From positions 1 through 35,061 of IMG/VR virus record IMGVR_UViG_2654587570_000013: a stretch of 35,061 nucleotides of DNA, one strand, 5' to 3'. How positions within the stretch are numbered: position 1 is the stretch's first letter; every line of letters starts with the position of its first letter. The notes under the pieces were generated by a model. It searched no databases. It was not told the DNA's origin and worked only from the letters and a program-made list of their open reading frames with translations. The position numbers and the translations under genes were made by a program. Source of the DNA: a virus (taxonomy: Duplodnaviria; Heunggongvirae; Uroviricota; Caudoviricetes). Below, piece by piece: positions 1 through 31,654 of the stretch.

Positions 1-387
1 ATGTTCAATATCATGATTCGTAAATTTGGCGAGATGACTTTCGAGAAAGCTGGTGTTGCGCGTACCGAAGAAGAAGCAATGGCCTTAGTTCTGGTAGCAC
101 TGAGATCATCACCTGAGATTATCGACGCTGAATATGTAGCCGCAGAAGGTGAGATTAAAGAGATTAAAGCAGTGGCTAAGGAATTAGGTGTTAAAGGTTT
201 CCGTAAGCTGAAACTATCCCGCGAGACTTATGTCATTGGACAGCAAGGACAATACCTAGATGAGAATAGCGCGATTGTCCTACTGAATAAGATCACCCGC
301 TATGGTTTCCAGATTGAGCAATATAAAACGTGTTTCGAATTATACGAAAAAGGTTTGCTGGATACTCTGACCATCGTTCGCGCTTAA
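1..387 (+). CDS. hypothetical protein (may be truncated at window edge)
   Basis: 128-aa ORF starting at window position 1; no motif recognised; followed by a hairpin plus T-run at 402-427. Confidence 0.4.
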   Translation: MFNIMIRKFGEMTFEKAGVARTEEEAMALVLVALRSSPEIIDAEYVAAEGEIKEIKAVAKELGVKGFRKLKLSRETYVIGQQGQYLDENSAIVLLNKITRYGFQIEQYKTCFELYEKGLLDTLTIVRA

Positions 388-401
388 TTAATTTCTAATT
401 T

Positions 402-427
402 GGTGGGTGCAATTCCCACCGCTTTTT
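402..427 (+). terminator. putative rho-independent terminator
   Basis: GGTGGG-tgcaatt-CCCACC stem-loop followed by gcttttt, immediately after the ORF ending at 387. Confidence 0.5.
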
Positions 428-444
428 AAACTGGAGAATCAAAC

Positions 445-525
445 ATGTTAGCTTTTATCTCATTCGTGGGAGGTAGTCTCACAACCATGATTAGTCTTTC
501 TTATATTGTCGTTAGTATGGGGTGA
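445..525 (+). CDS. small hydrophobic peptide (26 aa), speculative
   Basis: ATG at 445 preceded by ggag; translation MLAFISFVGGSLTTMISLSYIVVSMG is essentially one transmembrane segment. Below the ORF-track size cutoff. Confidence 0.2.
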   Translation: MLAFISFVGGSLTTMISLSYIVVSMG

Positions 526-528
526 GCA

Positions 529-654
529 ATGAAACAATTTCATGATGGCATTTCATCCAAGACATTCAAGAAAGAATATAGCGGATTGTGTATTAACTGG
601 ATTGATTTGATTGGTGCGGTTGTGTTTGGTTTGGTAATCAGCATCAACTTTTAA
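529..654 (+). CDS. small membrane peptide (41 aa), speculative
   Basis: ATG at 529; translation MKQFHDGISSKTFKKEYSGLCINWIDLIGAVVFGLVISINF has a C-terminal hydrophobic helix; sits between a terminator and the secreted-protein gene. Confidence 0.3.
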   Translation: MKQFHDGISSKTFKKEYSGLCINWIDLIGAVVFGLVISINF

Positions 655-699
655 CGATATAAATATATCGTAATTCAAATAACAAGAGGAAATTCTACT

Positions 700-945
700 A
701 TGAAAAAGATTATCGCGGGTGTTGTTCTTGCTCTGGGTTTGGTTGGTGCTGCAAATGCCGAACAATATGTACAGGGTGATAGTGTCAAGCGTGCTGCCGT
801 TGCACCTTCTTTAAATCAACTGTGTACTGAATTAGCACAGGTTGCCGGAGTTGGTGACGATGACGACTTTATTACTGCGTGTGTATGGAGTCATATCGAG
901 GATATTAATAAACGTGATGCAAAACTAACTGGAAAGAAATATTAA
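700..945 (+). CDS. small secreted/periplasmic protein of unknown function (possible moron)
   Basis: N-terminal signal peptide MKKIIAGVVLALGLVGAANA with an A-N-A signal peptidase I site; mature part has two Cys; SD agagga upstream; terminator at 962-998 downstream. Confidence 0.55.
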   Translation: MKKIIAGVVLALGLVGAANAEQYVQGDSVKRAAVAPSLNQLCTELAQVAGVGDDDDFITACVWSHIEDINKRDAKLTGKKY

Positions 946-961
946 TGACTTACTAACCAAT

Positions 962-998
962 GCCCCTATCGTTATAATACGCGGTAGGGGCGTTTTTG
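962..998 (+). terminator. putative rho-independent terminator
   Basis: GCCCCTA ... TAGGGGC stem followed by gttttt gttt. Confidence 0.5.
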
Positions 999-1010
999 TT
1001 TGGAAATGGT

Positions 1011-2690
1011 ATGAAAACTAAACTGTATTCGTATATTCGCTTCTCGTCTATGCGTCAGAATGATGGTTCGAGTTATGAACGACAAATCAGGATGGCGAGA
1101 GAGGTTGCGGCAAAGTATGACCTTGAACTGGTAAATGATTATCAGGATCTGGGTGTATCTGCGTTTAAGGGTGCTAACTCTAAAACAGGGGCGCTATCTC
1201 GTTTCCTTGATGCAATTGGTAGATCCGTTCCTGTTGGTAGCTGGCTATTCATCGAGAACTTGGACCGTTTATCCCGTGCCGATATTGTCAGTGCGCAGGA
1301 GTTATTCCTTTCAATAATCCGTAGGGGGATAACCATTGTTACTGGCATGGATAACAAGATCTACTCGCTGGATACTGTTACCGCTAACCCGATGGACCTG
1401 ATGTTCTCCATCCTTTTATTCATCCGTGGTAATGAGGAAAGCCAGACTAAGCGCAATCGTACTAACTCAAGCGCATTGATTAAGATTAAAGCTCATCAAG
1501 AAAATCCACAAAATCCGGCAGTGGCTATCGAGGAAGTTGGAAAGAATATGTGGTGGACTGATACCACTTCCGGTTATGTGTGTCCCGATCCGGTCTTCTT
1601 CCCTATTGTTCAGGAGGTTGTGGAATTACGCAGGAATGGACGGTCTACCGCCGAGATACTGGATCACCTTAACGCGACATATACACCACCACCAGCCGCA
1701 AGTCACAAGAGGCATTCAAACTGGTCACGAGCAATGATTGAAAGGTTGTTCCATACCCGCGCTTTGATTGGTATCAAGGAAATCTCTGTAGATGGCGTTA
1801 AGTATGAGTTAAAGGATTATTACCCTCGTGTGCTAGATGACGCTGAGTTTTATCACCTTAAGAAAAGCATTGGTGTTAGAGCATGTAACTATGGAGACAA
1901 AGAAGAAGCTAAACCGATCCCCCTGCTTAGTGGTGTTAATCTGCTGAAATGTGAACATTGCGGTTCCGCTATGGTTAAGGTGAAAGGAACTAACAAACGG
2001 CCTAACCAATATCGTTATTCATGCGATGCAATGCGCTCTAGTCGTATTGCATGTGTGCATACAAACTGGAGTTTTCGAGGTGATCAATTAGAGAAAGCTG
2101 TATTGCAATTGCTGGCTGATAAAATCTGGATTGCTGAGGATAAGGCTAATCCTGTTCCGGCTTTGAAAGTACAGATTGATGAGATATCACGCAAGATTGA
2201 TAACCTGATTACCCTTTCTGCTATGACTGGAGCAACGAAGGAGTTAGCCGACCAGATTACTACCCTCAATAGCGAGCGTGAAACACTCTATAATCAGATT
2301 AAGATGGCAGAAGAGGAAATGTATTCTGTGGACTCTCAAGGCTGGGAGAAGCTCGCAGAATTTGATTTAGAAGATGTTTATAACGAGGATCGCATTAAGG
2401 TCCGGTTTAAGATTAAGCAAGCTCTAAAACGGATCGGGTGTAGCAGGATTGACAAATACAAAAACTTGTTTGTATTGGAATACATTGATGGCAAGACCCA
2501 GAGAGTTGTAATAGAAAATTCAAGAGGACCGAGGAAAGGACAAATCTTTGTCGATTTGAAAACTATCAATGATAGGCAGATTCTGGAGAGTAACGGGCTT
2601 GTTCTGCATCCATGTTTAGACATGCTGACAGATAAAGACTGGAAGCCAGAAGAGGAAATACCAGGTCCATTACAGGAATTTGGAATTTAA
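1011..2690 (+). CDS. large serine recombinase (probable integrase)
   Basis: N-terminal resolvase-type catalytic domain with YIRFSSMRQ serine motif, a recombinase domain, a Cys-rich zinc ribbon (CEHCGS...C..C) and a C-terminal coiled coil. Start placed at MKTKL; the ORF track begins 15 nt earlier at 996. Confidence 0.85.
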   Translation: MKTKLYSYIRFSSMRQNDGSSYERQIRMAREVAAKYDLELVNDYQDLGVSAFKGANSKTGALSRFLDAIGRSVPVGSWLFIENLDRLSRADIVSAQELFLSIIRRGITIVTGMDNKIYSLDTVTANPMDLMFSILLFIRGNEESQTKRNRTNSSALIKIKAHQENPQNPAVAIEEVGKNMWWTDTTSGYVCPDPVFFPIVQEVVELRRNGRSTAEILDHLNATYTPPPAASHKRHSNWSRAMIERLFHTRALIGIKEISVDGVKYELKDYYPRVLDDAEFYHLKKSIGVRACNYGDKEEAKPIPLLSGVNLLKCEHCGSAMVKVKGTNKRPNQYRYSCDAMRSSRIACVHTNWSFRGDQLEKAVLQLLADKIWIAEDKANPVPALKVQIDEISRKIDNLITLSAMTGATKELADQITTLNSERETLYNQIKMAEEEMYSVDSQGWEKLAEFDLEDVYNEDRIKVRFKIKQALKRIGCSRIDKYKNLFVLEYIDGKTQRVVIENSRGPRKGQIFVDLKTINDRQILESNGLVLHPCLDMLTDKDWKPEEEIPGPLQEFGI

Positions 2691-2726
2691 GCGGACTAAA
2701 TCGACGTATAACGAGCTAAACACTTT

Positions 2727-2751
2727 AAGGGGTACATCTGTACCCCTTTTT
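2727..2751. terminator. bidirectional hairpin terminator between convergent genes
   Basis: Near-perfect palindrome AAGGGGTACA-TC-TGTACCCCTT with T-run on the plus side, between the recombinase stop (2690) and the convergent minus-strand gene end (2764). Confidence 0.5.
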
Positions 2752-2763
2752 AATTTAATTGTA

Positions 2764-3762
2764 TTAAAGAGCCTCTAAAGGGCTTAAATCGAGTTCTAAG
2801 TCTTCCGGTATTAAATCAGCTAACGGTGCATTCATCCACTGCGATAAATCTCGTTCTATGTCTTCATCACTAATGTAGTTGTTCAGATTGATTGCGTTGG
2901 TATCATCAAAATACATTGGCTTAGATGGGTTGGTGTGGATGTATTCATTGATGAATGATTTAACATCTTTCAGCTTGCTAATCGGTAGCGTTTCTGTGAA
3001 TCCGCTATTCATTACCTTACGTGGGATTTTCTTGCCCTGAATATTCTTTTTAATCCCCATTTCTAAATCACCAGCTTTCCATCCAATGTTAAACAAATGT
3101 GAGCATTCAAAGGTGATTTTCTCGCTGGTGTGCTTCTGGTGTTCTCTTACCCGTTGCATCGGATCTTTGCGAGTGGTAATTCCATATTTGAAAAACTTCT
3201 CGCCAACACGAATTAGATAAAAGTGCATAGAGCGCTGTGCAAACTTGTTTCTGATAACCTGTTTTCTACCATTCTGAATTGATTTAAGTACACCCCTAAC
3301 CAAAGGGCATGTTAACCCACCTTGTCTGCGGTTATTGTGTAAATCACCTTTCTTGTGAATCTTTCCGTGGCACTTACAACGAAGAATTAGTTTAGTGTCA
3401 ACACCCTGATAAGGTTCAGCCAGACCTAACACATCCCACCCTATCGGCTTGTAGAACTTGCGAGCGTTTTCTAAGTGTTCTTCTTCGGTAAATCTAAACT
3501 TCTTCTTAGGCGGTGATACTCTATCTTTGCCAGTAAACTGACCAGTTAGAACATGACTAATACATGGCGTTTTAACCTTTCCGTTAACTTCTATGCAAAC
3601 TTTGGTGTTCTGGAATGGTTTCTTTACAGGAAGCACAAAACCACTGTATAACCATCCATGCGCTTGACAAACTTTAATGATTCTGGTTTCATATTCGACC
3701 GGAGGGGTCGCACGTTTGCTTTTTGCGGTAAATTCGATATCCTTTGCTAAAGTAGTATTCAT
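2764..3762 (-). CDS. putative nuclease with Cys/His zinc-finger-like segment and a GIY-YIG-like motif
   Basis: 332 aa; mid-protein HFYLIRVGEKFFKYGITTRKDPMQRVREH resembles the GIY...YIG...R..H core of GIY-YIG nucleases; upstream CKCHGKIH...C cluster; acidic C-terminus. Confidence 0.45.
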   Translation of the reverse strand: MNTTLAKDIEFTAKSKRATPPVEYETRIIKVCQAHGWLYSGFVLPVKKPFQNTKVCIEVNGKVKTPCISHVLTGQFTGKDRVSPPKKKFRFTEEEHLENARKFYKPIGWDVLGLAEPYQGVDTKLILRCKCHGKIHKKGDLHNNRRQGGLTCPLVRGVLKSIQNGRKQVIRNKFAQRSMHFYLIRVGEKFFKYGITTRKDPMQRVREHQKHTSEKITFECSHLFNIGWKAGDLEMGIKKNIQGKKIPRKVMNSGFTETLPISKLKDVKSFINEYIHTNPSKPMYFDDTNAINLNNYISDEDIERDLSQWMNAPLADLIPEDLELDLSPLEAL

Positions 3763-3808
3763 AGTAGTGAATCCTCAATAAAATAATATTCACTACTATT
3801 TATAAGAA

Positions 3809-4066
3809 TTAATTATTGTAGTTTTGGAAACCAGTAAGATCACAAAATGAATCAGTATCATGTGCAGGAGAACGATGCTCTGCTTCGTCAGAGAAAATGT
3901 TGGCTACCGGAGATTCCACTTTAACTTCCAGTGCTTCTTCAACATCTGACTTAACTTCTTCGACCACTGGTTCAACTGCTGGAGATTCTTCTTTTGTTTC
4001 TTCAATGACGATCTCAGGTTCTTTCATTGCTTCAACCAGAGACGGATCAACTTCGTCGAATACCAC
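3809..4066 (-). CDS. small highly acidic protein (unknown; DNA-mimic-like composition)
   Basis: 85 aa, about one third Asp/Glu; apparent GTG start. The overlapping plus-strand Ser/Thr-rich ORF (3897..4121) looks like its antisense shadow. Confidence 0.35.
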   Translation of the reverse strand: MVFDEVDPSLVEAMKEPEIVIEETKEESPAVEPVVEEVKSDVEEALEVKVESPVANIFSDEAEHRSPAHDTDSFCDLTGFQNYNN

Positions 4067-4146
4067 TTTATCATCTGCGGTATATTTGTCTATAATGAAA
4101 AATGGTCAGAAATATAGCTAACGTCGCCAGCATATTCTAACAAAAA

Positions 4147-4166
4147 AGCGCCCACTGGAGGCGCTT
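4147..4166 (-). terminator. putative terminator at end of the late operon
   Basis: GCGCC-cactgga-GGCGC hairpin; on the minus strand it is followed by a T-run, immediately after the endolysin gene. Confidence 0.45.
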
Positions 4167-4171
4167 TAATT

Positions 4172-4525
4172 TTATCCATTCCACCGTGATTTTTTTGATC
4201 TGGAATCAATATGCGTAAAGGTTTTATATTTTCCTAAGCCGTATTGAGTAGGATATTTCCCATCAAGATAAGCATGAACAATATCAGGCGAGACACCCTT
4301 GATAACAATGTCAGCCGCGCGGCCTCGAACATGATAGCTATTGGTTGCGCCGCCTACATTCTTGTTATGAGTCGGGCAACGGTTCCCACTGTTAATAATC
4401 ACTGGTTTACCGAAGTGCTCTCGTACATCCTCAAGAATCACCAGTAATTCAGCGTCGATTGTATCATAATCACATTTTCCGCATTTACATTTAAATTCCT
4501 TGCGAGAAAAATGCTTACTTAACAT
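4172..4525 (-). CDS. peptidase M15 family cell-wall hydrolase (probable endolysin)
   Basis: SGNRCPTHNKNVGGATNSYHVRGRAADI ... FTHID matches the zinc-binding H/D/H signature of M15 peptidases; 117 aa, no signal peptide; last gene of the late operon. Confidence 0.8.
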   Translation of the reverse strand: MLSKHFSRKEFKCKCGKCDYDTIDAELLVILEDVREHFGKPVIINSGNRCPTHNKNVGGATNSYHVRGRAADIVIKGVSPDIVHAYLDGKYPTQYGLGKYKTFTHIDSRSKKSRWNG

Positions 4526-4534
4526 ATTACCCCC

Positions 4535-4882
4535 TTAGATCATTTCGAAGATATAACCAATAAAGCGCATACCCTTGATATAATAAGGAGCAGTGCCTAC
4601 ACACACCGCGCGTGCATCACCCAGACAGTTAAAGCTATAAGGATTAACTACATCGACTTCTTGCCCTACACGAAAACGATATTTAGGACGTTTAGCCAAT
4701 GTAGCGACACAAAACACGGTCCCCTTTTCATGATCACGGATACATTCTTTATATTGTTTATGTTTAACTCTCTTCGCCTCAAAATCATAGGTCATAGATT
4801 CTGGGCTAATGCCATTAATAAAAATACCGGAAAGCTGATCAACCGGATAAGTAGGAAATTCAGTGAAAATATTTTTAGCCAT
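4535..4882 (-). CDS. hypothetical protein
   Basis: 115-aa ORF co-oriented and tightly packed in the operon; no recognisable motif. Confidence 0.5.
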   Translation of the reverse strand: MAKNIFTEFPTYPVDQLSGIFINGISPESMTYDFEAKRVKHKQYKECIRDHEKGTVFCVATLAKRPKYRFRVGQEVDVVNPYSFNCLGDARAVCVGTAPYYIKGMRFIGYIFEMI

Positions 4883-4920
4883 GTTATACCCCCATAAGAT
4901 TCTATGAGGGTATTTATTGA

Positions 4921-5604
4921 TTAAACGTATTTCATGCGCGATTTAATGTGCTTATTGATGTTTTCAAGCATCATTGCTTCGTTGCTTTCCCACGATCCTA
5001 GCGTCGAATAACGAGTAGAAATTTTATCCGACTTAACGGCAACAATTCGCTTACTCTGTTTCTGGATGCGTTTCTCTAAGCGACGTTTTGCCACCGCCGA
5101 TCCATTCTTAGCGCGTTTGGTTCGGGATTTCTTAGGCTTGTACTTCTTCATGATAAAAGTCCCTTCCTTGTTCTCTACCTTGATGAAGTTGCCGTTTTCG
5201 ATGTTACGCATCATCTTACCGCCTTTGATGGCCTTAATGTTCCCGTGGGAGTCTAAGACCTTACCGTTGGCGATTGGCACTAGCTTATTGATTTTGCCAC
5301 CATCGAAATAGTGTTTCAGATAGTCATCCTGACTGCCGATCTTCTTGTCCTTATCCCTTGCGCCCTTGATGAAGATTTGGTGTCTGGTCCCTGATCGGTT
5401 CTTGTAGTTGGTATTACCTACAGCTTGCTGAGTCCAGCGAGTAGGTCTATCAACATTCTTGTTAATCTTCTTCTGGAGTGCACGAGCAGCAAAGATCGCC
5501 CCTTCCCCTATCGCCCTTTCGAATGTATCGGTTGCTTTATCAGTCCATTGGCGTAACGCTTTCTTTGTCCTTAGAGCGTTTCGTTTATTGGTACTGGTTG
5601 CCAT
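4921..5604 (-). CDS. very basic Lys/Arg-rich protein of unknown function
   Basis: 227 aa with long K/R-rich stretches (possible nucleic-acid binding or virion internal protein); SD AGGGGG upstream. Confidence 0.5.
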   Translation of the reverse strand: MATSTNKRNALRTKKALRQWTDKATDTFERAIGEGAIFAARALQKKINKNVDRPTRWTQQAVGNTNYKNRSGTRHQIFIKGARDKDKKIGSQDDYLKHYFDGGKINKLVPIANGKVLDSHGNIKAIKGGKMMRNIENGNFIKVENKEGTFIMKKYKPKKSRTKRAKNGSAVAKRRLEKRIQKQSKRIVAVKSDKISTRYSTLGSWESNEAMMLENINKHIKSRMKYV

Positions 5605-5605
5605 G

Positions 5606-5776
5606 TTAGCCCCCTAATAACGAAAAGACCCCCGCCAGTGTCCTTAGCAATTGTTCATCCACGGTCATAGCCGGGAGTTCAAGCCCAAAGGACGTTAGCA
5701 GAGGTCTAATAGCTACGTTATAAGTGAGGGCGACAATCAAGAGATAACCAAAATATTTCTTAAGTTTATTCTTCAT
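5606..5776 (-). CDS. small membrane protein (56 aa), speculative
   Basis: Translation MKNKLKKYFGYLLIVALTYNVAIRPLL... has one transmembrane helix; its stop abuts the SD of the next gene. Below the ORF-track cutoff. Confidence 0.35.
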   Translation of the reverse strand: MKNKLKKYFGYLLIVALTYNVAIRPLLTSFGLELPAMTVDEQLLRTLAGVFSLLGG

Positions 5777-5794
5777 ATATTCACCCCTTTATTA

Positions 5795-6073
5795 TTATTT
5801 TTGTTTGAGTATGTCGAGAACTTGGTCAAATTTGGCGTCCATCGCAACCACTTTCTTCTCTATACCGTGTAGTGTTTGTTCCATTTGGTAAACACGTTCA
5901 GCAATCTGAGTATGGTTATTCTGCATCGTCTCAAACTTCTGGTTTAACAATGCGTCGCTGGATTCCAATTTCGACAATCTATTTTCTGTGGCTAATTGAT
6001 TTCGGTGAAGTCTCCAAAGCCCACCACAAATTAAGGCGATAACACCGATACCGCCATATATAATTTCAGTCAT
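5795..6073 (-). CDS. membrane-anchored coiled-coil protein (holin/spanin-like or exclusion protein, unassigned)
   Basis: 92 aa; N-terminal transmembrane segment GGIGVIALICGGLW followed by a heptad-like coiled coil; immediately downstream of the J-like gene. Confidence 0.5.
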   Translation of the reverse strand: MTEIIYGGIGVIALICGGLWRLHRNQLATENRLSKLESSDALLNQKFETMQNNHTQIAERVYQMEQTLHGIEKKVVAMDAKFDQVLDILKQK

Positions 6074-6127
6074 TACGCCCCCGATATTTTTATATAATTT
6101 AATGGCAGAATTATTTAGATAAAAATA

Positions 6128-6165
6128 ATCCCGCCTAACTCAAAAGAATTAAGCGGGATTAATTA
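6128..6165 (-). terminator. putative hairpin terminator after J-like gene
   Basis: ATCCCGC ... GCGGGAT stem with a long loop; T-rich on the minus strand. Confidence 0.35.
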
Positions 6166-6178
6166 TTAGAATTAAATT

Positions 6179-9100
6179 TTAAGAAACAGAAATACCAGTA
6201 GCGGCTTTCTTAGTTACCATTACCGTTAGATCGCTGATATATGCACTTGGGTTATAGTTGTTAACGCCCTTACAGTAAACTTCAAAAGTCATTGTTACTG
6301 CCCCGTGTCCGGCTGGCATGTCAATAACTCCACTGTACATACAGCCAGAAGTTGCAGTGCGATCATATAGAACACCACCATTTTTCTTAACGATTAGTCG
6401 GCAAGTATCCCAATGATCGCTACTTTCGCCACGACGAACAGACCCGTTATGATGAATCGCTGGAATCACTATTTGGCGATCGAATGGATGATCATCTTCG
6501 ACCCTTACAGTGATTGCACCATCAGGCCAGTTTGGTTGGCGATGCGGGAAACTCCTACCAACCACTTTCACGAAGTCACCACGCACCTGATTAGCATCAA
6601 GCATACCCAAAATGCGGCAACTTGAATTAATCGTTACGTTGTTCATTTCGCCGGAATCAGCCACCAAATGACCACGAATATTAGCGTGTCTAAAATGACA
6701 AGTGCCATCTTTGCCGATATACCATCCATCGTTACCATTCCAGTTATAAGACTGGATATAGTTACCAATTTTAGCATTATCGATAGAGCCATCAATGATA
6801 TGACCTGTTCCGATCTGTGCGTGTTGGATGTGAGCGCCGTTAATCTGGGCTGTGCCGATCTTAGCCGTGGTGATACTAGCATCACTAATCTGGGCTGTGC
6901 CAATTGCAGCATTACGAATCATCGCATTATCAAGATAAACTTTGTTATCTTCGATGCCAAACGGACAAACTTCTGATCCGTCTTGTGGAGCTACCGCGAT
7001 TTTATCAGCCGTAAAGATGATTCTTGTCGGTTCTGCCGGATCATTGGTTGCGCTCATATGAATACCAGCCACGCGACCATCTGCATTAACTGCCAGATTA
7101 TATTTGCTGTTAATGGTTCCCTTCAAAGCATCGATTTTTACATCTGCTTCCTGATTCACACCAGCAATCTTGCCATCCATTTCTACCCGAACTTGATCAA
7201 TCTTACTTGCGCTTGCTGCCTCACTGGTAGCAATTGCTTGTTTCAGGGTAGTAGCAGATGCGCTAACTTCTTTGGTGATATCGCCTTTCAGTTCAGCTTT
7301 AACCTGATCAATCTTAGTTGCGCTGGCTTGCTCACTGGTAGCAATCAGACTCTTGAGAGTATCGGCTGAGGCTTGGACCGTCTGCCCTGTCTCGGTAGTA
7401 ATCTGTTTATGCATTGCATCAATCTTAGCATCGGCATTAGCGCCAGCTTGAGCAATAGCATCCGCGATGGTTTCATCTAAGCGATCTTGTAAACCAATCA
7501 GGTCTTCCAGTGCTTCTTTGTCCTGATCGTCCCAGCTAATGGTAGATTTCATTTGCATGAAATACGGTTCAGACCAAACAGCATCATCCATACCGAAAAT
7601 ATCATAGTGAGCACCACGGATATAATAATCACCGTCAGCCAAATCAAAGGAAGTATGACTAACGCTATTGGTAGTCACTGCCCTTGCATCGGAGAAAGTA
7701 TTATCGGTTGCATACTGGATGATTGACCCTGCATAGTCATGTTCTACGTCATCCGCCCAGCTAACAAACGCAGTATTAAAGCCACCACGCGCACTAAAAC
7801 CTTTCATCGGCTTATGTTGTGGGTTGATAGCCACTAAACGCGCTGGGGCGCTCTCTGAGTTGTTATAGCCCTTGACTGATACTTCTACCGTCAATTCACG
7901 GGAAAGGCCGTTAAACTGGTTCATATCAAGCGTATAAGTCCATGATTCAGGATCGCGGGTACGGTACTGAATAGACTTACCAGCCTTGTTAGTCACCTTG
8001 ATAATGTATGCTTCAAACAGGTCACTAAACTTGTTAGCTTCACCGTTGATCATCACATCTAATTGTTGCTGATTTTCCCATTCGATAATCAGATCATTGC
8101 CTTCGAAAGTACCAGGTGAACTACCCTGATTTTTGATTCGAATAACCGGAGTCGGCAATTCATAGGTAACAGTAGGATTCTGGTTAACCAGTTCCACCCA
8201 TTCGGAACGAGCAATAATACCGAAAGCACAAACGCGGTAATCGTAGGAACGATCTTTAGCCAGTGCATTGATATTGAAAATTTGCTGTGAAGTCTGTCCC
8301 AGCTTAATCCAGTTAGGTGATCCACTCACTTTGTAATCAATCTGGAAACCGTAGCGGTTGAAATCTTCCGGTACATCCCATGTCAAAGTTACGTTTTTAC
8401 CGTGGATTGTCTCACCAGTTGCCTTAATTCTGAAATTAGTCGGTTTCTGTACTGTCATTGAATCCGGTAAACCAGTAGGTCTATTGTCTGGATTCGCCGC
8501 ATAGTTCAGGTCAGTATAAACCTGAGAATTATATTCTGTGGCGGTGATAGTCATCATCCCAGCAATACCAGAATCAATAGAGCGATCAATTGCAGTAATA
8601 CGCCAAAGTGAATTATTCAGTTTTAATTCATCATAGGTTACGCTAATAACATCCCAAACTTCGGCAGTGAATGCGTCAGTAGTCATAAAGCTGATAACCT
8701 GAGTGATACGAGATTTATTTCGTTCTACACTCGCTAGTTTATCAATCTGGGCTTTAGACTTAACAAAACGATATTCAATATCTTTAGCGATAATTCGACC
8801 ATCTTGACGAATAGTAGCATCGTTTTCAGCATCAGCCGGATAACGTAGCATTTGCTCTGAATAGTCAATTGATGGTTCTTGATACATCGCGTTAATGGTA
8901 TTGAAATAACCATTAGTGCCACCTGTTTTCAGTGATACTTTTCCCATCATGATATTGTCTTCATTGAAGGTATGCTTAACAATATCAGGAGCATCCAGTT
9001 TCAGAGTAATACGTCCAAAGGATTCGAACATCACCCCGCCGAAAGTCTGCATAAGACTGGTCAAGTTCTCTTTAAAGCTGGCGTTCGGATCACATGCACC

Positions 9101-15328: not shown

Positions 15329-15382
15329 TATTCTTTTCCTTCTATTTTAAACAATAGGGCACATACCCGTAATTCTATTTAT

Positions 15383-15685
15383 TTAGCGGTTGCTCAAACG
15401 TCTATAACGAAGATGAGCGATCCCCCTATTTGTGCTAACGGTAATTACCGCCCCTTGCGGTGCAATACAAGAATGAATCTGTCCCCAATCATGACCCTTA
15501 TGGCTTCCAGAAACACACAAACCATGAATAAGCAATTCAGAGTCACCACCGCCACCACCGGAAGAATGAGCACAGAATGAAATAGTCCCGAAAGCGTCGG
15601 CTGTCCAACCGTTAGGAATATCAAACCATCCCTGATTTGCTTTACCCGCCCTATTCCCCAAAGCGCCATCTACCCAAAATGCCAT
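15383..15685 (-). CDS. small Gly/Trp/His-rich protein, paralogue 1 of 3 (unknown function)
   Basis: 100 aa; shares WFDIPNGW, a Gly-rich segment, D-SEL--GL and a C-terminal aromatic-basic tail with the two adjacent ORFs. Confidence 0.55.
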   Translation of the reverse strand: MAFWVDGALGNRAGKANQGWFDIPNGWTADAFGTISFCAHSSGGGGGDSELLIHGLCVSGSHKGHDWGQIHSCIAPQGAVITVSTNRGIAHLRYRRLSNR

Positions 15686-15990
15686 TAGTGCATTCTCCTG
15701 AATTTAAAATAATGCAAGCTACCTTTACCCAATGTAAAGCTAACGGTAGCACCAGCGCCAACTAAAGAACTAGCGCCCCAACTCCCGGCATCAGCCGCAT
15801 GATGACCCGATTCAATCAATCCATTTACGACCAATTCAGAATCAAGATCACCAGCACCGTTAATGGCTTCCATATGAGCAAAAACAATTCCGCATGAATC
15901 AGTAACCCAGCCGTTGGGGATATCAAAATATCCACCATTAGCCCAAATACTAATAGCGTTTGACATTCTTTGATTTATCCATCCAGCCAT
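15685..15990 (-). CDS. small Gly/Trp/His-rich protein, paralogue 2 of 3
   Basis: 101 aa; YFDIPNGW motif; its stop overlaps the start of paralogue 1 (TAATG). Confidence 0.55.
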   Translation of the reverse strand: MAGWINQRMSNAISIWANGGYFDIPNGWVTDSCGIVFAHMEAINGAGDLDSELVVNGLIESGHHAADAGSWGASSLVGAGATVSFTLGKGSLHYFKFRRMH

Positions 15991-15992
15991 AA

Positions 15993-16289
15993 TTAAAACT
16001 CCATGAATTTAAAATATTCAACACCACCTTCACCCCCTAAACCAAAGGAGACGGTGCAGCCAGCAGGAACAAACGAATTTATAGTAGATCCCCAATTGGT
16101 CCCACCACGACGACGAGCAACGGTCAAACCATCTACGTTAATATGTGCATCAGACCACCCACCACCAGCATTATGACGCATTACAGCGACACCAGCACGA
16201 GCAGTACCATAGCCGTTAGGAATATCAAATACATGCCATTTTAAAGCATCGATTTTAGTATTAATTTCGCTACTTACCCAATATCCCAT
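15993..16289 (-). CDS. small Gly/Trp/His-rich protein, paralogue 3 of 3
   Basis: 98 aa; VFDIPNGY motif; 2-nt gap to paralogue 2. Confidence 0.55.
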   Translation of the reverse strand: MGYWVSSEINTKIDALKWHVFDIPNGYGTARAGVAVMRHNAGGGWSDAHINVDGLTVARRRGGTNWGSTINSFVPAGCTVSFGLGGEGGVEYFKFMEF

Positions 16290-16327
16290 ATAAGAATCCT
16301 TAGCGGAGATTTCTCCCCGCTTTCCAA

Positions 16328-19300: not shown

Positions 19301-19738
19301 AGCAGCCGCATTTTTATTAGCGTTGATGGTATCCGACAATTCAGCTTTAACACCAGCAAGGTCGGAAGCAGCTTTATTTTTATTGGCCTCGATTGTCGCG
19401 TCGGTTTCGCGTTTAATTACATCAACTTTATTGTTAATTTCTGCGTGATTTGCTGCGATGGTTGCATCAGTAGTTTGTTTAATTTCATCTACTTTAGCGT
19501 GAATATTGCGGTCATTTACTGCAATTGTGCTATCCAGTTCTTGTTTGTTAGCATCAACTTTAGATTCTAGTGCCGCGTGAGTTTCAGGAGAAACAGAGAT
19601 TTGAACTACTTCATGATCTCGGTCTTTGGTAAAAATAACATGGTCTTTAAGGTTGATTGCTACCTCACCGACCTGTAATTGTTCCGGCGTTGGTTTTTTG
19701 CCAGAAACATTTGTTCGTTTAAATTGGATCGACTGCAT
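16328..19738 (-). CDS. tail fibre/tailspike with C-terminal intramolecular chaperone (peptidase S74-type) domain
   Basis: 1136 aa; N-terminal array of roughly 22-aa shaft repeats (KVDxIKxxTDATIxAN); C-terminal ~110 aa has the S-DxRxK autoproteolysis signature (YIRS/DRRLK) and a terminal coiled coil, as in T5 L-shaped fibre and K1F endosialidase chaperone domains. Confidence 0.85.
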   Translation of the reverse strand: MQSIQFKRTNVSGKKPTPEQLQVGEVAINLKDHVIFTKDRDHEVVQISVSPETHAALESKVDANKQELDSTIAVNDRNIHAKVDEIKQTTDATIAANHAEINNKVDVIKRETDATIEANKNKAASDLAGVKAELSDTINANKNAAAVATQELDTRINKKVDDIKSRTDATIASNDKAINDKVDLIKTETDRTIAANKVYAENQLTDTYNNLTGVIAANKQEAADNVAALTRDVEAKNTAIHSKVDNNKSYTDSELARLESRIDAADGSADGKYIKKHVNTYTDGYLLSKTANYFDDPNARNLDYFGAFRMNDLAGHIAMILHVPHPSGVNHARGFEFTYGSNPVHTVRTYGYDELGHLAYSHRMYHEGDKPTPAEIGAYSKAEIDRLFQKTLNFGIEGGWFKLGTLTMPQQHGRSAKIRLVGGNGYNVGMNGQANIIELVIRCGNNSPKGVVFNAYYTIWHYEQHFCAIPTDGDNYDLYAYYGAHTGFVLAEYQVSSGGVSLNLLDTPEYLGGEKPVADEIFDALNISSFNNFSNRGTLNFAGNHQGQYDIEHLNEQQTNAKKMLRRFRSSAPATIWHETVDDNAYRLATGYEDTNQELLLTATTGLHVKRLTLDGGVGGNSGIDIRRGPNESSHFNFMDYRTGQDVRNGWFGFGDGTTKDFIWWNDNGQNSINLIEDGELHITGGKGQKIVMNSEVALSENARLAVKGGNYGLMFRNDGTSFHILSTDHGDSFGGWNSRRPFSYDFAGGGLDLGGTATARCLHLGIDGSTRLEDNLFFKAGSRQSMDYMELVHWGASNTGRNNVLSLRDSKGFLAEFERLGDNTIKNTFFGKLKVNRGSDAIIMNAETGDSSIYLLGTCADNNNWYIGKGGADNGLAFYSYATNAAINITNAGDIALSPKGVEMTHVNNVRFYVHGERWTASQSGGWGDQWGLEAPIFVDHGYVSPDCYYPIIKGRSLITNQGYTTAVDFGMRRVPQNWGQAIIRVGSAEASPAAGHPQAVFEFHHDGTFYCPGNGNFNDVYIRSDRRLKINVEDYEENAVDKVNKLKVKTYDKVKSLNDREVIGHEIGIIAQDLQEVLPEAVKTAKIGGFDNPEEILTISNSAVNALLIKAVQEMSEENKLLRERLAAIEAKLG

Positions 19739-30394: not shown

Positions 30395-30967
30395 AGTGGT
30401 ATCCTCTAAAAGAAAGTGAATCAAACAAATTACACTAGTATTTATACGAGAAAAAAATATCTATTTGGAAGTGATTGGATTCAGTCGGCTTCGCCTCCTT
30501 CATGATTTTGATTAAATCATCATCAAAACGAAGGAGTATCTTTAGAATATAAGAATCTTTCTTTTGGAGAAATAATAATCAGGAAGCAATTTGGCAACCG
30601 AAGGTTGCAATCCCGAAGGGATACCAATACCTTTCTAGAAAGTGATTGTTACTCACTTCGTTCGTTTACTAGAATCAGTTAGTAACTAGCATTAAATCCC
30701 TTTCTAAGAAAATCCTTTCAAAAGTGAGTGAACGCCGTAGGCGTGAACGTGAGCGAAGCGAACTATCCAATCCCTTTCGAATCCTGCTTGCAGGTCTTAG
30801 AAGGTGTTGATGGGCGCTTCGCGCACGGCTACGCCGTATTCTTTTTGCGAGATCTTTCTTGAACGTAGTGAGAGAAAACGAGCAAAAAGGAGAACGTTAG
30901 TTCGAATTTTATATTCTATGGTCTGTGGGGTGAAATGTTTTTCAAGATCATACACTTATGAGATTGA

Positions 30968-31313: not shown

Positions 31314-31654
31314 TTTTATCGCTGGTGGGGGTTGAAATTTTCTAAACAGCCCCCATATAGATGATAAGCAAGATTTTTCGTGTATAAATACATGCATGAA
31401 ATGATTGTTCACTTCTGAAAATCCCCTGATTCACTGTTAACACATACAGCACTGGTTAAACACACAGTGCTTTTTCGATTAAATAATGTACGAAATGATT
31501 AATTATTAATCTTCTCTTTAGCAATTCGTGCTCCCACTGATCGGATATACAGTGGTTTTACAGGGTTTTCTGAAATGACTTTTATAAATAGAAGTATCGA
31601 GGGCGAAAAGCTCTTTTTATTGTCCTTATTAATCCACATTTGAGGAATCTACTT

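What the first reader, a model, noticed from the sequence alone, without database searches (positions are those of the whole stretch)
2764..4066. Accessory island between the recombinase and the endolysin: GIY-YIG-like nuclease plus a small highly acidic protein
Both genes lie outside the late operon, which ends at the terminator at 4147-4166, and form their own convergent unit next to the recombinase. The 332-aa protein combines a Cys/His cluster with a GIY-YIG-like core. The neighbouring 85-aa protein is about one third Asp/Glu. The pair could be a homing endonuclease, or a nuclease with its inhibitor or DNA-mimic partner. The acidic ORF has a GTG start and low coding confidence.
Basis: partly seen in the sequence, partly recalled or inferred. 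Interest (0 to 1): 0.45.

Follow-up and report, generated by a model that had tools for sequence, protein, structure and literature searches.

The report
Homing nuclease beside T4-like gene debris
The 332-aa gene is an intact mobile ("homing") DNA-cutting enzyme of a known phage family. The small acidic "partner" is not a gene but a broken piece of a head-protein gene copied almost letter for letter from T4-like phages, which shows that this E. coli prophage trades DNA with its virulent competitors.

Summary
Both ORFs exist as described. The 332-aa protein is a free-standing homing endonuclease of the T5orf172/GIY-YIG type. It has two degenerate CapR-like zinc-finger DNA-binding modules. This is supported by a PHROG hit, Pfam scans of its homologues, fold searches and conserved catalytic residues.

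The 85-aa acidic ORF is not a partner protein. Window 3826-4083 is 98.8% nucleotide-identical to an internal piece (residues ~84-168 of 241) of inh, the gene annotated as "inhibitor of prohead protease" in T4-like Krischviruses. In this window the piece is also frameshifted. Next to it, 4085-4140 is the 3' stub of a second nuclease gene that is intact in sibling prophages.

The block is therefore a decayed "HEG island". Sibling E. coli, Salmonella and Proteus prophages carry nuclease-1, a truncated Inh (residues 49-186), nuclease-2 and/or a UvsW helicase at the same recombinase-endolysin junction. Some of these carry patches 95-99% identical to Krischvirus DNA. "Empty" siblings are deletion derivatives.

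The nuclease body is 99.2-99.6% identical across backbones that differ by 2-17%, which indicates recent horizontal spread. A TATAAATA motif and a hairpin over the start codon resemble T4 endonuclease regulation. However, the same motif precedes other genes of this prophage. The element is a new member of a known kind, of moderate interest.

The parts
2727..2748 (+). Intrinsic terminator of the serine-recombinase gene. It marks the left edge of the variable junction.
   Evidence: 9-bp stem with 5 GC pairs, followed by a T-run.
2764..3762 (-). Nuclease-1 (HEG1). This is an intact free-standing homing-endonuclease gene of 332 aa with the architecture CapR-like module x2 + T5orf172/GIY-YIG nuclease + acidic C-terminal tail.
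2923..3240 (-). Nuclease domain (residues ~175-280). Y182 and Y193-G194 correspond to GIY...YIG. R204, E257 and N278 are the other candidate catalytic residues.
   Evidence: Y182, K192, G194, E234, G254, E257 and T258 are invariant, and R204 is >90% conserved, in 53 sequences with mean column identity 13%. N278 is invariant in the closer alignment A4 and >=90% conserved in A1. pLDDT is 84-95. The spacing matches I-TevI Y6/Y17/R27/E75/N90 (own knowledge).
3298..3705 (-). Two degenerate CapR-like zinc-finger DNA-binding modules (residues ~20-75 and ~93-155).
   Evidence: Pfam CapR hits residues 102-134 at E=0.014, below the cut-off. C129 and C152 are invariant, and C131 is nearly invariant. The model shows a repeated helix-plus-three-strand topology.
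2764..2809 (-). The last ~15 codons of nuclease-1 (...PEDLELDLSPLEAL). They are retained in 'empty' siblings and conserved in all family members, and they act as the left recombination anchor.
   Evidence: Empty-site junctions. The tail is conserved even at 36% overall identity. Sibling diversity rises again left of ~2800.
2810..4013 (.). The segment missing from 'empty' siblings (1204 bp). It is bounded by the microhomology TC[C/A]GGT. It represents a deletion in those siblings, not an insertion here.
3797..3804 (-). TATAAATA, the T4-late-promoter consensus, 34 nt upstream of the nuclease-1 ATG.
   Evidence: Other alleles carry AATAAATA or ACTAAATA in the same register. A(-13) is the commonest natural T4 variant (PMC2988020). 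Caveat: the same 8-mer precedes other genes of this prophage.
3762..3798 (-). Hairpin (TAGTAGTGAAT / ATTCACTACTA) with the Shine-Dalgarno GAGG (3773-3776) in its loop and the A of the ATG in the stem.
   Evidence: RNA fold -15.2 kcal/mol, z=-3.2, with 0 of 200 shuffles as stable. A transcript starting inside the 5' arm is unstructured. The stem is 92.6% paired in 9 alleles, but covariation is not significant.
3826..4083 (-). inh' is an internal fragment of the T4-like inh gene (Inh residues ~84-168 of 241). It is a pseudogene remnant.
   Evidence: 98.8% nt identity to Krischvirus Makalu_002 (3 mismatches), and homology stops abruptly at both ends. Nothing else in window 1-8000 matches any phage at megablast level.
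3809..4066 (-). It is the open remainder of inh' plus 5 unrelated codons (QNYNN) and is probably not translated as such.
4085..4140 (+). 3' stub of nuclease-2 (HEG2): its last 18 codons (FVYNEKMVRNIANVASIF*), with a 1-nt deletion in the A-run 4098-4102.
   Evidence: Siblings L005 and L008 have the intact 193-aa gene inserted exactly at window 4081/4085. It matches Pfam CapR at 26.1 bits (cut-off 24.2) and T5orf172.
4145..4167 (.). Bidirectional terminator shared by the late operon (endolysin, - strand) and by nuclease-2 (+ strand). It is the right edge of the variable junction. Backbone homology with the other cargo types resumes at 4138.

Best explanation
Window 2764-4140 is the decayed remnant of a homing-endonuclease (HEG) island. 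It sits at the recombinase-endolysin junction of an uncharacterised family of temperate enterobacterial prophages.

What is shown:
- (1) The 332-aa gene encodes an intact nuclease of the T5orf172 branch of the GIY-YIG superfamily. It is preceded by two CapR-like zinc-finger DNA-binding modules.
- (2) The acidic ORF is a frameshifted internal fragment of the T4-like head gene inh.
- (3) Next to it lies the 3' stub of a second CapR+T5orf172 nuclease gene.
- (4) Fuller versions in siblings read nuclease-1 | truncated Inh (residues 49-186) | nuclease-2, or nuclease-1 | nuclease-2 + UvsW helicase. In other words, they hold pieces of the adjacent, divergent inh|uvsW locus of T4-like phages, bracketed by nuclease genes.
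- (5) Cargo segments carry patches 95-99% identical to present-day E. coli Krischviruses, inside older, diverged copies.
- (6) 'Empty' siblings are microhomology deletions that keep the 3' end of nuclease-1.

What is inferred: nuclease-1 makes a site-specific double-strand break in DNA that lacks it. The target could be rival alleles in sibling prophages, the inh/uvsW region of co-infecting Krischviruses, or both. Recombinational repair then copies the nuclease gene and converts flanking sequence. That would explain why the nuclease body is nearly identical in diverged backbones and why the neighbouring cargo is repeatedly overwritten with Krischvirus sequence.

Expression is probably kept low. 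The gene lies behind the late-operon terminator, has no sigma-70-type promoter, and its start codon is held in a hairpin. That hairpin would be absent only from transcripts starting at the TATAAATA motif immediately upstream.
For: Nuclease identity:
- phrog_681 'endonuclease' E=1.8e-19.
- 1995 representatives at E<1e-3. Of 53 sampled, 38 match CapR, 16 MUG113, 14 DUF4379, 7 DUF723 and 5 T5orf172.
- Foldseek against viral models gives CapR/T5orf172/'homing endonuclease' proteins, with the top hit in Krischvirus JEP8.
- Y182, K192, G194, E257 and T258 are invariant.

inh fragment:
- It is the only megablast match of window 1-8000, at 98.8% to Krischvirus inh.
- L008 holds 415 bp at 99%, corresponding to Inh residues 49-186.
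- The same truncated Inh, with the same ends, occurs in Proteus (50% aa identity) and in L010 (~70% nt identity).

Second nuclease stub.

UvsW variants: L009, L011/L012, L020 and L022. In L009, a 500-bp patch at 95-97% sits inside a gene otherwise 55-76% identical to Krischvirus uvsW.

Allele replacement within fixed junctions: L016 and L017 have recombinase sequence 98.7-100% and endolysin 98.3-100% identical to the window, but their inh' is only 80% identical.

Deletion origin of empty sites.

Recent spread of nuclease-1: it is 99.2-99.6% identical across siblings, versus 80-100% for flanks. There are ~12 variable sites in 950 bp of the gene body, versus 6-11 per 50 bp outside it.

A related nuclease gene sits beside uvsW in Krischvirus JK32.

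Literature:
- CapR+T5orf172 HEGs, and 'HEG-islands' whose cargo is >90% identical between otherwise unrelated phages (PMC10448857; PMC8096241).
- Late promoter plus RBS-sequestering hairpin in T4 HEGs (PMC2988022).
Against: - No cleavage activity or target site is known, and homing is inferred from population patterns only.
- The window protein itself scores below the Pfam cut-offs for CapR (16 vs 24.2 bits) and MUG113 (13.3 vs 22.3 bits). Family assignment rests on PHROG, on homologues and on fold.
- No truly naive empty site was found. Every sibling keeps a remnant. So the polymorphism shows deletion and allele replacement, not fresh insertion.
- No sequenced Krischvirus carries a nuclease gene inside inh.
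- The prophage and Krischviruses also share a tail-fibre module at 82-94% nt identity. Exchange therefore happens without any nearby nuclease gene, and the inh' patch need not be nuclease-driven.
- The conversion patch in L009 uvsW lies ~800 bp from the nearest nuclease gene.
- Hairpin covariation is not significant.
Confidence: 0.7

Rival explanations
1. Infection-triggered anti-Krischvirus module. The prophage keeps nuclease-1 (and originally truncated Inh and nuclease-2) silent in the lysogen. When a T4-like phage infects, its gp55/gp33/gp45 late machinery reads the TATAAATA promoter. The resulting short transcript lacks the 5' arm of the hairpin and is translated. The nuclease then cuts the invader, for example in inh/uvsW. 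The outcome would be either protection of the lysogen population or copying of the nuclease gene into the invader.
For: - (T/A)ATAAATA or ACTAAATA sits in the same register upstream of nine diverged alleles from E. coli, Salmonella and Proteus prophages, while the surrounding sequence varies.
- A(-13) is the main natural T4 late-promoter variant, and (a/g)C at -13/-12 is the Aeh1 type.
- There is no sigma-70 -35 or TGn element, and no gp55/gp33/gp45 homologue in the window.
- The hairpin is stable only in long transcripts. This is the same logic as for I-TevI, segB and mobE.
- The cargo is homologous to Krischvirus genes, and the tail fibre is shared, so the two phages compete for the same cells.
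- The close relatives of the nuclease found in the big protein database (18 clusters, 24-99% identity) come from bacterial genome assemblies and sequencing-run assemblies, including prophage-sized contigs. The best match in the 50,697-phage collection is only 35% identical.
Against: - The 8-mer also precedes ordinary genes of this prophage (ant, a small HTH gene, a secreted-protein gene). It may therefore simply be this phage's own promoter class, read with an unknown activator.
- There is no match to known defence systems.
- inh' and nuclease-2 are decaying in many siblings, which argues against selection on the module as a whole.
- A cut late in a T4-like infection, when many genome copies and active recombination repair are present, may not protect the cell.
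Confidence: 0.15
2. The 332-aa nuclease is toxic, and the 85-aa acidic protein is its inhibitor, antitoxin or DNA mimic.
For: The two ORFs are adjacent and on the same strand. The small ORF is 28% Asp+Glu.
Against: - The small ORF is an internal fragment of inh (98.8% nt) with a fortuitous GTG start and no ribosome-binding site.
- It is frameshifted here relative to L004 and L016.
- Siblings with the same intact nuclease have inh' pieces of different extent or allele. Those in which the nuclease's close paralogues sit beside uvsW have no inh' at all.
- The nuclease is therefore maintained independently of the small ORF.
Confidence: 0.02
3. Domesticated, non-mobile protein. The CapR-like modules make it a sequence-specific DNA-binding regulator or a dedicated nuclease serving the prophage, by analogy with CapR of PLE or Odn of ICP1. 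On this view it is not a selfish homing element.
For: - CapR and Odn are documented domestications of this very family.
- The gene occupies a fixed position in the prophage family across genera.
- A short C-terminal motif, (E/D)LDL(S/E)P(L/V), is conserved at the protein level and suggests a partner interaction.
Against: - The catalytic residues are retained, so it is not a pure repressor like CapR.
- The same locus holds many alleles (99, 84, 75, 64, 57, 50, 36 and 27% identity) with conserved 5' and 3' anchors.
- One allele has very recently spread across diverged backbones.
- This pattern fits competing selfish or arms-race cassettes better than a housekeeping regulator.
Confidence: 0.08
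4. Inert debris. The whole block came in by illegitimate or homologous recombination with Krischvirus DNA, as the tail-fibre module did. The nuclease gene is a passive, possibly inactive passenger.
For: - Exchange with Krischvirus also occurs at the tail-fibre locus, where no nuclease gene is nearby.
- Multiple deletions show that the region is dispensable.
Against: - The nuclease ORF is intact in 10 of 10 siblings. The few substitutions give dN/dS of 0.1-0.5, and the catalytic residues are invariant over 1995-member family depth.
- The gene has no close homologue in any of 50,697 phage records, so it did not come in with the Krischvirus patch.
- Its diversity trough coincides with the ORF body, unlike that of a passenger.
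Confidence: 0.05

Closest known systems
T5orf172-family homing endonucleases with CapR/DUF723/DUF4379 zinc-finger modules (vibriophage ICP1 gp165/gp174 etc., T5 orf141/172; Barth, Dunham & Seed 2023, PMC10448857; Netter et al. 2021, PMC8096241)
   Same: - Same architecture: repeated Cys-containing CapR-type DNA-binding modules followed by a T5orf172/GIY-YIG-clan nuclease domain.
- Free-standing gene.
- Several paralogues clustered at one locus.
- Allele and domain swapping.
   Different: - Resident in temperate enterobacterial prophages rather than in virulent phages.
- The window protein is too diverged to pass the Pfam cut-offs on its own.
- It carries an extra conserved acidic C-terminal tail (...ELDLSPLEAL).
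- Activity is untested.
'HEG-islands' (Barth et al. 2023): cargo genes bracketed by homing-endonuclease genes and >90% nt identical between otherwise unrelated phages
   Same: - In siblings L005/L008/L010 the cargo (inh') is bracketed by two nuclease genes.
- The E. coli cargo is 96-99% identical to Krischvirus, although the genomes are otherwise unrelated.
- The nuclease content of related islands is unstable.
   Different: - The cargo here is a truncated, non-essential gene fragment (or uvsW), not an essential operon.
- The exchange is between a temperate prophage and a virulent T4-like myovirus.
- In this window the island is decayed to one intact nuclease gene plus two remnants.
T4-family HEG regulation: late promoter plus RBS-sequestering hairpin (I-TevI, I-TevII, I-TevIII, segB, Aeh1 mobE; Edgell, Gibb & Belfort 2010, PMC2988022)
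   Same: TATAAATA lies immediately upstream of a stable hairpin that holds the SD and start codon. A transcript initiated ~6 nt downstream of the motif would lack the 5' arm and be translatable.
   Different: - The element lies in a genome with no gp55/gp33/gp45.
- The same 8-mer precedes other prophage genes.
- No transcript mapping exists.
- Covariation in the stem is not significant.
T4-like Inh (annotated in the Krischvirus records as 'inhibitor of prohead protease' or 'minor head protein inhibitor of protease'; 241 aa in Krischvirus)
   Same: The acidic ORF is colinear with, and 98.8% nt identical to, Inh codons ~84-168.
   Different: - It lacks the N-terminal 83 and C-terminal 73 residues, and it has no start or RBS of its own.
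- It is frameshifted in this window.
- Fuller truncated copies (residues 49-186) are conserved in other siblings and might be functional there.
Domesticated relatives: PLE CapR (repressor) and ICP1 Odn (anti-satellite nuclease)
   Same: Same protein family, used in conflicts between a phage and another mobile element living in the same host.
   Different: No evidence here for loss of mobility or for a defined target. The catalytic residues are retained, unlike in CapR.

Membership tests
GIY-YIG superfamily / T5orf172 (MUG113) nuclease domain | GIY-YIG alpha/beta fold in the catalytic domain | tested here: met
   [not shown]
GIY-YIG superfamily / T5orf172 (MUG113) nuclease domain | Catalytic motif residues: Tyr (GIY), Tyr/Gly (YIG) 10-11 residues later, Arg ~10 residues later, and a distal Glu | tested here: met
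   Y182, Y193-G194 (K192 and G194 invariant), R204 (>90%) and E257 (invariant) in 53 sequences with mean column identity 13%. The correspondence with I-TevI residues rests on own knowledge.
GIY-YIG superfamily / T5orf172 (MUG113) nuclease domain | Significant match of the protein itself to the Pfam T5orf172 / MUG113 / GIY-YIG models | tested here: not met
   The window protein scores 13.3 bits on MUG113 against a cut-off of 22.3 (E=0.13) and has no T5orf172 hit. Membership holds only transitively: 16/53 homologues match MUG113 and 5/53 match T5orf172, and phrog_681 scores E=1.8e-19.
CapR-type zinc-finger DNA-binding module | Match to the Pfam CapR homology domain (PF21817) with a CxxC...CxC-type cysteine set | tested here: inconclusive
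   The window protein scores 16 bits against a cut-off of 24.2 (residues 102-134), while 38/53 homologues pass. The cysteine set is degenerate here: C129-x-C131-H132 ... C152, with the fourth Cys replaced.
Homing endonuclease gene (functional definition) | Site-specific double-strand cleavage of the allele that lacks the gene | not testable with these tools
   No biochemical data are available, and no target could be deduced.
Homing endonuclease gene (functional definition) | Sporadic distribution, with gene similarity exceeding that of the surrounding genome (horizontal spread) | tested here: met
   The block is present in 18 of 57 matching E. coli genomes. The ORF is 99.2-99.6% identical across siblings whose flanks are 80-100% identical. 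The diversity trough covers 2800-3750.
Homing endonuclease gene (functional definition) | Existence of naive, never-occupied target sites in related genomes | tested here: not met
   All 'empty' siblings examined (L006, L007) retain the 3' end of the nuclease gene and part of inh'. They are therefore deletion derivatives.
HEG-island (Barth et al. 2023) | Cargo flanked on both sides by homing-endonuclease genes | tested here: inconclusive
   This is met in siblings L005, L008, L013, L018 and L010. In the window only one nuclease gene is intact, and the other is an 18-codon stub.
HEG-island (Barth et al. 2023) | Cargo >90% nt identical between phages that otherwise lack nucleotide similarity | tested here: met
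   98.8% over 258 bp in the window and 99% over 415 bp in L008, against Krischvirus. No other match exists in window 1-8000.
T4-type late promoter with translational hairpin | TATAAATA (or a natural variant) without a -35 element, placed so that initiation falls inside the 5' arm of an RBS/start-sequestering hairpin | tested here: met
   The motif is at 3797-3804 and the hairpin at 3762-3798, with dG -15.2 and z -3.2. The truncated RNA is unstructured. The best -35 scores 3/6 and there is no TGn. Variants in 9 alleles.
T4-type late promoter with translational hairpin | Dependence on gp55/gp33/gp45 of a T4-like phage | not testable with these tools
   No gp55/gp33/gp45 homologue is present in the window. 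The 8-mer also precedes other prophage genes, so another factor may read it.
T4-type late promoter with translational hairpin | Evolutionary support for the hairpin (compensatory changes) | tested here: inconclusive
   92.6% of cells are paired. There is one compensatory pair (G-C to A-U in L022), two wobble changes and six unpaired cells. This is not distinguishable from shuffles (193/500).
T4-like Inh protein | Full-length homology to Inh with its own translation start | tested here: not met
   Only residues ~84-168 of 241 are present. The ORF has a GTG start at V89 and a frameshift relative to siblings.
Nuclease inhibitor / DNA-mimic partner | Small acidic protein that is conserved and co-inherited with its nuclease | tested here: not met
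   The extent and allele of the acidic segment vary among siblings that carry the same nuclease. The segment is absent where paralogous nuclease genes sit beside uvsW.
Known anti-phage defence systems (PADLOC) | Significant match to a defence-system model | tested here: not met
   The only hits are 14.6-14.9 bits to PD-Lambda-1 over 34-49 residues. Nuclease-2 and Inh' have no meaningful hits.

The most novel reading that the evidence does not exclude
This prophage family may be wired to the late transcription machinery of the T4-like Krischviruses that compete with it for the same cells.

The nuclease gene sits behind a promoter of T4-late type, (T/A)ATAAATA with no -35 element. Eight further such motifs occur in the window, one of them in front of the anti-repressor gene. 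The genome encodes no gp55/gp33/gp45.

On this reading, an infecting Krischvirus would switch these genes on. The nuclease, released from its hairpin block, would cut the invader in or near inh/uvsW. That would either restrict the invader or transfer the nuclease cassette into it. The 95-99% identical patches in inh' and uvsW, and the shared tail-fibre module, would be footprints of these encounters. The conserved truncated Inh (residues 49-186) in fuller islands could be a second effector aimed at the invader's prohead protease.
Probability: 0.15. Interest if true: 0.8.

Novelty: new member of a known kind. Interest (0 to 1): 0.5.

Why it matters
- It turns an apparent 'nuclease plus acidic partner' operon into a documented case of recent DNA traffic between a virulent T4-like phage genus and a temperate prophage family. 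The traffic is localised next to homing-endonuclease genes.
- The HEG-island idea was developed mainly on virulent phages. This case extends it to prophages resident in 1% of complete E. coli genomes.
- It offers natural material for measuring homing and co-conversion across phage lifestyles: many alleles at one locus, conversion patches, and deletion series.
- If the T4-late-type promoters really respond to Krischvirus infection, the family would be a prophage that senses and attacks a specific virulent competitor. That would be relevant to phage therapy with Krischvirus-type phages.

Tried and rejected
- **Sequence search against PDB chains.** Only spurious Stu2 hits at E~0.2.
- **Search for a donor T4-like phage carrying either nuclease gene inside or beside inh.** tblastn of nuclease-1 found 8 records, all <=35% identical and none in inh. 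Nuclease-2 found nothing. IMG/VR gave only sibling prophages. Scans of GTDB genomes and JGI metagenomes found nothing.
- **'Insertion into a small host ORF'.** The 65-aa ORF after the endolysin in empty siblings first looked like a target gene interrupted in frame. This was rejected. Its C-terminus is the conserved tail of the nuclease, its middle is inh', its N-terminus is antisense to the nuclease-2 stub, and it contains the terminator hairpin.
- **'inh' is only recent debris'.** This was modified after truncated Inh ORFs with identical ends were found at ~70% nt identity in L010 and 50% aa identity in Proteus.
- **L016's divergent inh' allele as a copy of a second Krischvirus lineage.** It is ~80% identical to every phage record, so no donor was found.
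- **Covariation test of the hairpin.** Not significant.
- **The conserved acidic/hydrophobic C-terminal tail as a T4-type sliding-clamp-binding peptide.** The RB49 tails are gp43 ...SLTDLFDI and gp55 ...SLDQFYEIEN, and the Whisky gp33 tail is ...TNTLDI. They share only general character with ...ELDLSPLEAL, so there is no motif match.
- **Known defence systems (PADLOC).** Nothing meaningful.
- **An own gp55/gp33/gp45 in the window.** None by tblastn.
- **Assembly chimera.** Excluded, because the same junctions occur in many complete E. coli chromosomes.
- **One megablast call failed on length.** It was repeated.
Full report
**1. Observation.**
ORF 2764-3762 (- strand, 332 aa, ATG) and ORF 3809-4066 (- strand, 85 aa, GTG) are present. 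They lie between a serine recombinase gene and an M15 endolysin gene. The recombinase (996-2690, +) matches Resolvase, Recombinase and Zn_ribbon_recom. The endolysin (4172-4525, -) matches Peptidase_M15_3. Terminator-like hairpins lie at 2727-2748 (+) and at 4145-4167, and the latter scores on both strands. The small ORF is 28% Asp+Glu (24/85), not one third.

**2. What the genome is.**
The window belongs to a family of chromosomal E. coli prophages found in 60 of 5426 complete genomes. The family encodes the following:
- a large terminase and a portal protein;
- a fused protease/major-head protein;
- tail proteins and a gp37-like tail fibre;
- an anti-repressor.

Apart from short patches, it matches no phage record at the DNA level.

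**3. The 332-aa protein.**
- Direct Pfam hits are sub-threshold: CapR E=0.014 and MUG113 E=0.13. PHROG 681 'endonuclease' scores E=1.8e-19 over residues 87-292.
- A profile of 18 homologues finds 1995 cluster representatives at E<1e-3.
- Of 53 sampled, 38 match CapR, 16 MUG113, 14 DUF4379, 7 DUF723 and 5 T5orf172.
- The AlphaFold model (mean pLDDT 78) shows two similar helix-plus-three-strand modules (residues ~20-75 and ~93-155). A well-predicted alpha/beta domain follows (175-280), then a low-confidence acidic tail.
- Foldseek against viral models returns CapR-domain, T5orf172 and 'homing endonuclease' proteins at E down to 5e-15. The top hit is in Krischvirus JEP8.
- Y182, K192, G194, E234, G254, E257 and T258 are invariant, and R204 is >90% conserved, in an alignment with 13% mean column identity. 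Their spacing fits the GIY...YIG...R...E pattern of I-TevI (own knowledge).

This is the architecture described for T5orf172 homing endonucleases with CapR/DUF723/DUF4379 zinc-finger repeats (PMC10448857; PMC8096241).

**4. The acidic ORF.**
- In a megablast of window 1-8000 against 50,697 phage records, the only match is 3826-4083. It hits 59 records. The listed ones are Krischvirus-group T4-like phages, and the annotated ones call the gene inh ('inhibitor of prohead protease'). The best match is 98.8% identical.
- In phage Makalu_002 the match is internal to the 241-aa gene. There are three mismatches, and similarity stops abruptly at both ends.
- The segment corresponds to Inh residues ~84-168. 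The GTG 'start' is Val89, and the ORF ends five unrelated codons after the homology.
- Siblings L004 and L016 have one more A in the run at 4098-4102. In them a longer ORF is open, starting 4 nt before the endolysin stop codon. The window copy is frameshifted.
- That longer ORF contains the terminator hairpin, and its N-terminus is antisense to another gene's 3' end (see section 5). It is an accidental fusion, not a gene.

The acidic ORF is thus a pseudogene fragment, and its acidity comes from the acidic middle of Inh.

**5. A third part.**
Siblings L005 and L008 carry ~675 bp more, inserted exactly at window 4081/4085. The insert holds a 193-aa gene on the + strand, which PGAP annotates as 'GIY-YIG nuclease family protein' in L005 and as 'hypothetical protein' in L008. 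It matches Pfam CapR above threshold, and T5orf172 below its cut-off. Its L010 homologue passes the T5orf172, MUG113 and GIY-YIG cut-offs. Its last 18 codons (FVYNEKMVRNIANVASIF*) survive in the window at 4085-4140.

**6. The island in relatives.**
- L008 reads nuclease-1 | Inh' residues 49-186 | nuclease-2 | terminator | endolysin. The Inh' piece is 415 bp and 99% nt identical to phages ECD7 and Whisky.
- L010 has a nuclease-1 that is 64% identical. It shows the same arrangement, with an Inh' starting at the same Met49 but only ~70% nt identical to Krischvirus.
- A Proteus columbae prophage (L021, nuclease-1 61% identical) has a 146-aa Inh' with the same start and the same end (...CPWW). It is 50% aa identical to Krischvirus Inh.
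- Other siblings carry paralogues of both nucleases together with a complete or truncated UvsW helicase, at the same junction. These are L009 and L020 in E. coli, L011/L012 in Salmonella, and L022.
- In Krischvirus, inh and uvsW are adjacent and divergent. The prophage islands therefore hold pieces of that one locus, bracketed by nuclease genes.
- Krischvirus JK32 has a 361-aa relative of nuclease-1 inserted between uvsW and uvsW.1. It is 35% identical to nuclease-1 in the nuclease domain and 29% identical over its full length to the L009 paralogue.

**7. 'Empty' sites are deletions.**
- In L006 the sequence jumps from window 2809 to 4014, across the microhomology TC[C/A]GGT. L007 has a further deletion between two ACCAGAG repeats.
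- The retained left part encodes ...PEDLELDLS..., which is the C-terminal tail conserved in all nuclease-1 relatives, even those only 36% identical.
- Backbone homology with the UvsW-type siblings resumes only at window 4138, at the nuclease-2 stop codon.
- No naive site was seen.

**8. Evidence for recent exchange.**
- (a) Nuclease-1 is 99.2-99.6% identical in ten siblings. In the same siblings the recombinase gene is 90-100% identical and the late genes 83-98%. Variable sites number 6-11 per 50 bp outside the gene but only ~12 in the 950 bp of its body. All ten ORFs are intact.
- (b) L016 and L017 have recombinase sequence 98.7-100% and endolysin 98.3-100% identical to the window, and the same junctions. 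Their inh' allele is only 80% identical to the window's and ~80% identical to every phage record. One of the two alleles must have been replaced by recombination after the junctions formed.
- (c) The L009 uvsW is 55-76% identical to Krischvirus uvsW, except for a ~500-bp patch at 95-97%.
- (d) Outside the island, window ~15367-18875 (tail fibre and downstream ORFs) is 82-94% identical to Krischvirus gp37 regions. The two phage types therefore share receptor-binding modules, and presumably host cells.

Points (a) to (c) fit the 'HEG-island' picture: cargo >90% identical between otherwise unrelated phages, unstable nuclease content, and allele and domain swapping (PMC10448857). Point (d) is a caution. 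It shows that exchange also happens where no nuclease gene is nearby.

**9. Regulation.**
- On the - strand the sequence is TTCT-TATAAATA-GTAGTGAATATTATTTTATTGAGGATTCACTACT-ATG.
- The 8-mer is the T4 late-promoter consensus. Other alleles carry AATAAATA, and A(-13) is the commonest natural T4 variant (9 of 50 promoters). One allele carries ACTAAATA, which is the Aeh1 type.
- The hairpin has dG -15.2 kcal/mol and z -3.2. It encloses the SD and pairs the A of the ATG. An RNA beginning inside the 5' arm is unstructured.
- This is the arrangement described for I-TevI, I-TevII, I-TevIII, segB and mobE (PMC2988022).
- There is no sigma-70-type promoter upstream.

Caveats:
- Stem covariation is not significant.
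- TATAAATA occurs nine times in the window against 2.6 expected. All nine sites lack a -35 element. Most of them precede other genes of this prophage, including ant, a small HTH gene and a secreted-protein gene.
- The window has no gp55/gp33/gp45 homologue.

The motif is therefore either this prophage's own promoter class or a set of promoters read by an infecting T4-like phage. The data cannot decide between these.

**10. Mechanism, with what is shown and what is inferred.**
- Shown: the identity of the three parts, the deletion origin of empty sites, allele replacement, conversion patches, and the uniformity of nuclease-1.
- Inferred: nuclease-1 is an active site-specific endonuclease. Its breaks, in rival alleles or in Krischvirus DNA, drive its own spread and the conversion of neighbouring cargo. 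It is kept nearly silent by the upstream terminator and by the start-codon hairpin.

The nuclease/inhibitor model is rejected, for three reasons. The acidic segment varies in extent and allele, or is absent, beside intact nucleases. It has no translation signals. It is a fragment of a known gene.

**11. Comparison and novelty.**
The nuclease is a new, diverged member of the CapR+T5orf172 HEG family. The block is a decayed HEG-island. Three points go beyond published descriptions:
- the island resides in temperate prophages of E. coli, Salmonella and Proteus;
- its cargo is drawn from the inh|uvsW locus of virulent T4-like phages, at up to 99% nt identity;
- T4-late-type promoter motifs occur throughout a genome that lacks the T4 late factors.

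Nothing matched known defence systems.

**12. Verdict.**
Interest is moderate. The most novel reading that cannot be excluded is a Krischvirus-triggered nuclease, or a prophage that senses a Krischvirus. It is testable with simple transcript mapping and plating experiments.

Noticed in passing
window 15367-18875 (tail-fibre gene 16328-19738 and the small ORFs 15383-16289): This stretch is 82-94% nt identical to the long-tail-fibre distal subunit (gp37) region of Krischviruses. The best case is phage KFS-EC, at 94.3% over 2196 bp. The prophage and the virulent phages share a receptor-binding module. This is a second locus of exchange, and it has no nuclease gene nearby.
   Followed up: partly
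window 658, 3797, 29645, 30439, 31383, 31583, 31942, 33890, 34717: TATAAATA occurs 9 times against 2.6 expected. All sites appear to lie between ORFs (by inspection of the ORF lists), and none has a sigma-70 -35 or TGn. Most sit 30-70 nt upstream of start codons: ORF 700-945, nuclease-1, ant 28735-29577, an acidic ORF starting ~30386, the 64-aa HTH 31640-31834, and ORF 34756-. The window encodes no gp55/gp33/gp45 homologue. The factor that reads these sites is unknown.
   Followed up: partly
window 31383-31470 (+) and 31860-31949 (-): Two of the TATAAATA motifs are followed within ~40-80 nt by terminator-like hairpins rather than by ORFs. They may drive convergent small RNAs in the regulatory region.
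   Followed up: no
[not shown]
   Followed up: yes
L021 4503-4943 (Proteus columbae), L010 5587-5943, L008 1700-2146: A truncated Inh (residues ~49-186/187), with the same N- and C-terminal limits, stays open at 50% aa divergence in three distant islands, yet it has no obvious Shine-Dalgarno. It could be a functional gene, such as a decoy or inhibitor of a T4-like prohead protease. Alternatively it could be kept open because it is repeatedly recopied from functional phage genes.
   Followed up: partly
window 2764-2890 (nuclease-1 residues ~290-332): The nuclease has an acidic/hydrophobic C-terminal tail whose core, (E/D)LDL(S/E)P(L/V), is conserved at the protein level across all alleles. It resembles T4-type clamp-binding C-termini only in general character. 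The compared tails are RB49 gp43 ...SLTDLFDI, RB49 gp55 ...SLDQFYEIEN, and Whisky gp33 ...TNTLDI. Its function is unknown.
   Followed up: partly
L022 2836-3873: One sibling has yet another nuclease gene with a faint CapR match (345 aa). It is inserted between the 115-aa late gene and the endolysin, and it has AATAAATA 48 nt upstream.
   Followed up: no
L002 2320-3405 (Shigella phage JK32): A 361-aa relative of nuclease-1 is inserted between uvsW and uvsW.1 of a Krischvirus, ~1.6 kb from inh. It is preceded by a terminator-like hairpin rather than by a TATAAATA motif.
   Followed up: partly
L006 594-850 (E. coli 14EC017): 'Empty' siblings carry an extra ~257 bp between the recombinase stop codon and the junction. 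It holds an ORF (MKMIKILGLILSMNSCLALA...) with a signal-peptide-like start, reminiscent of window ORF 700-945. It may be a moron.
   Followed up: no
window 21546-23558: The 670-aa major head protein matches PHROGs for 'major head and protease protein', which suggests a fused prohead protease-capsid gene.
   Followed up: no
window 30507-30584 and 34852-34953: Short patches of 73-80% nt similarity to Krischvirus intergenic and hypothetical-protein regions are the only phage-database matches of the regulatory region.
   Followed up: no
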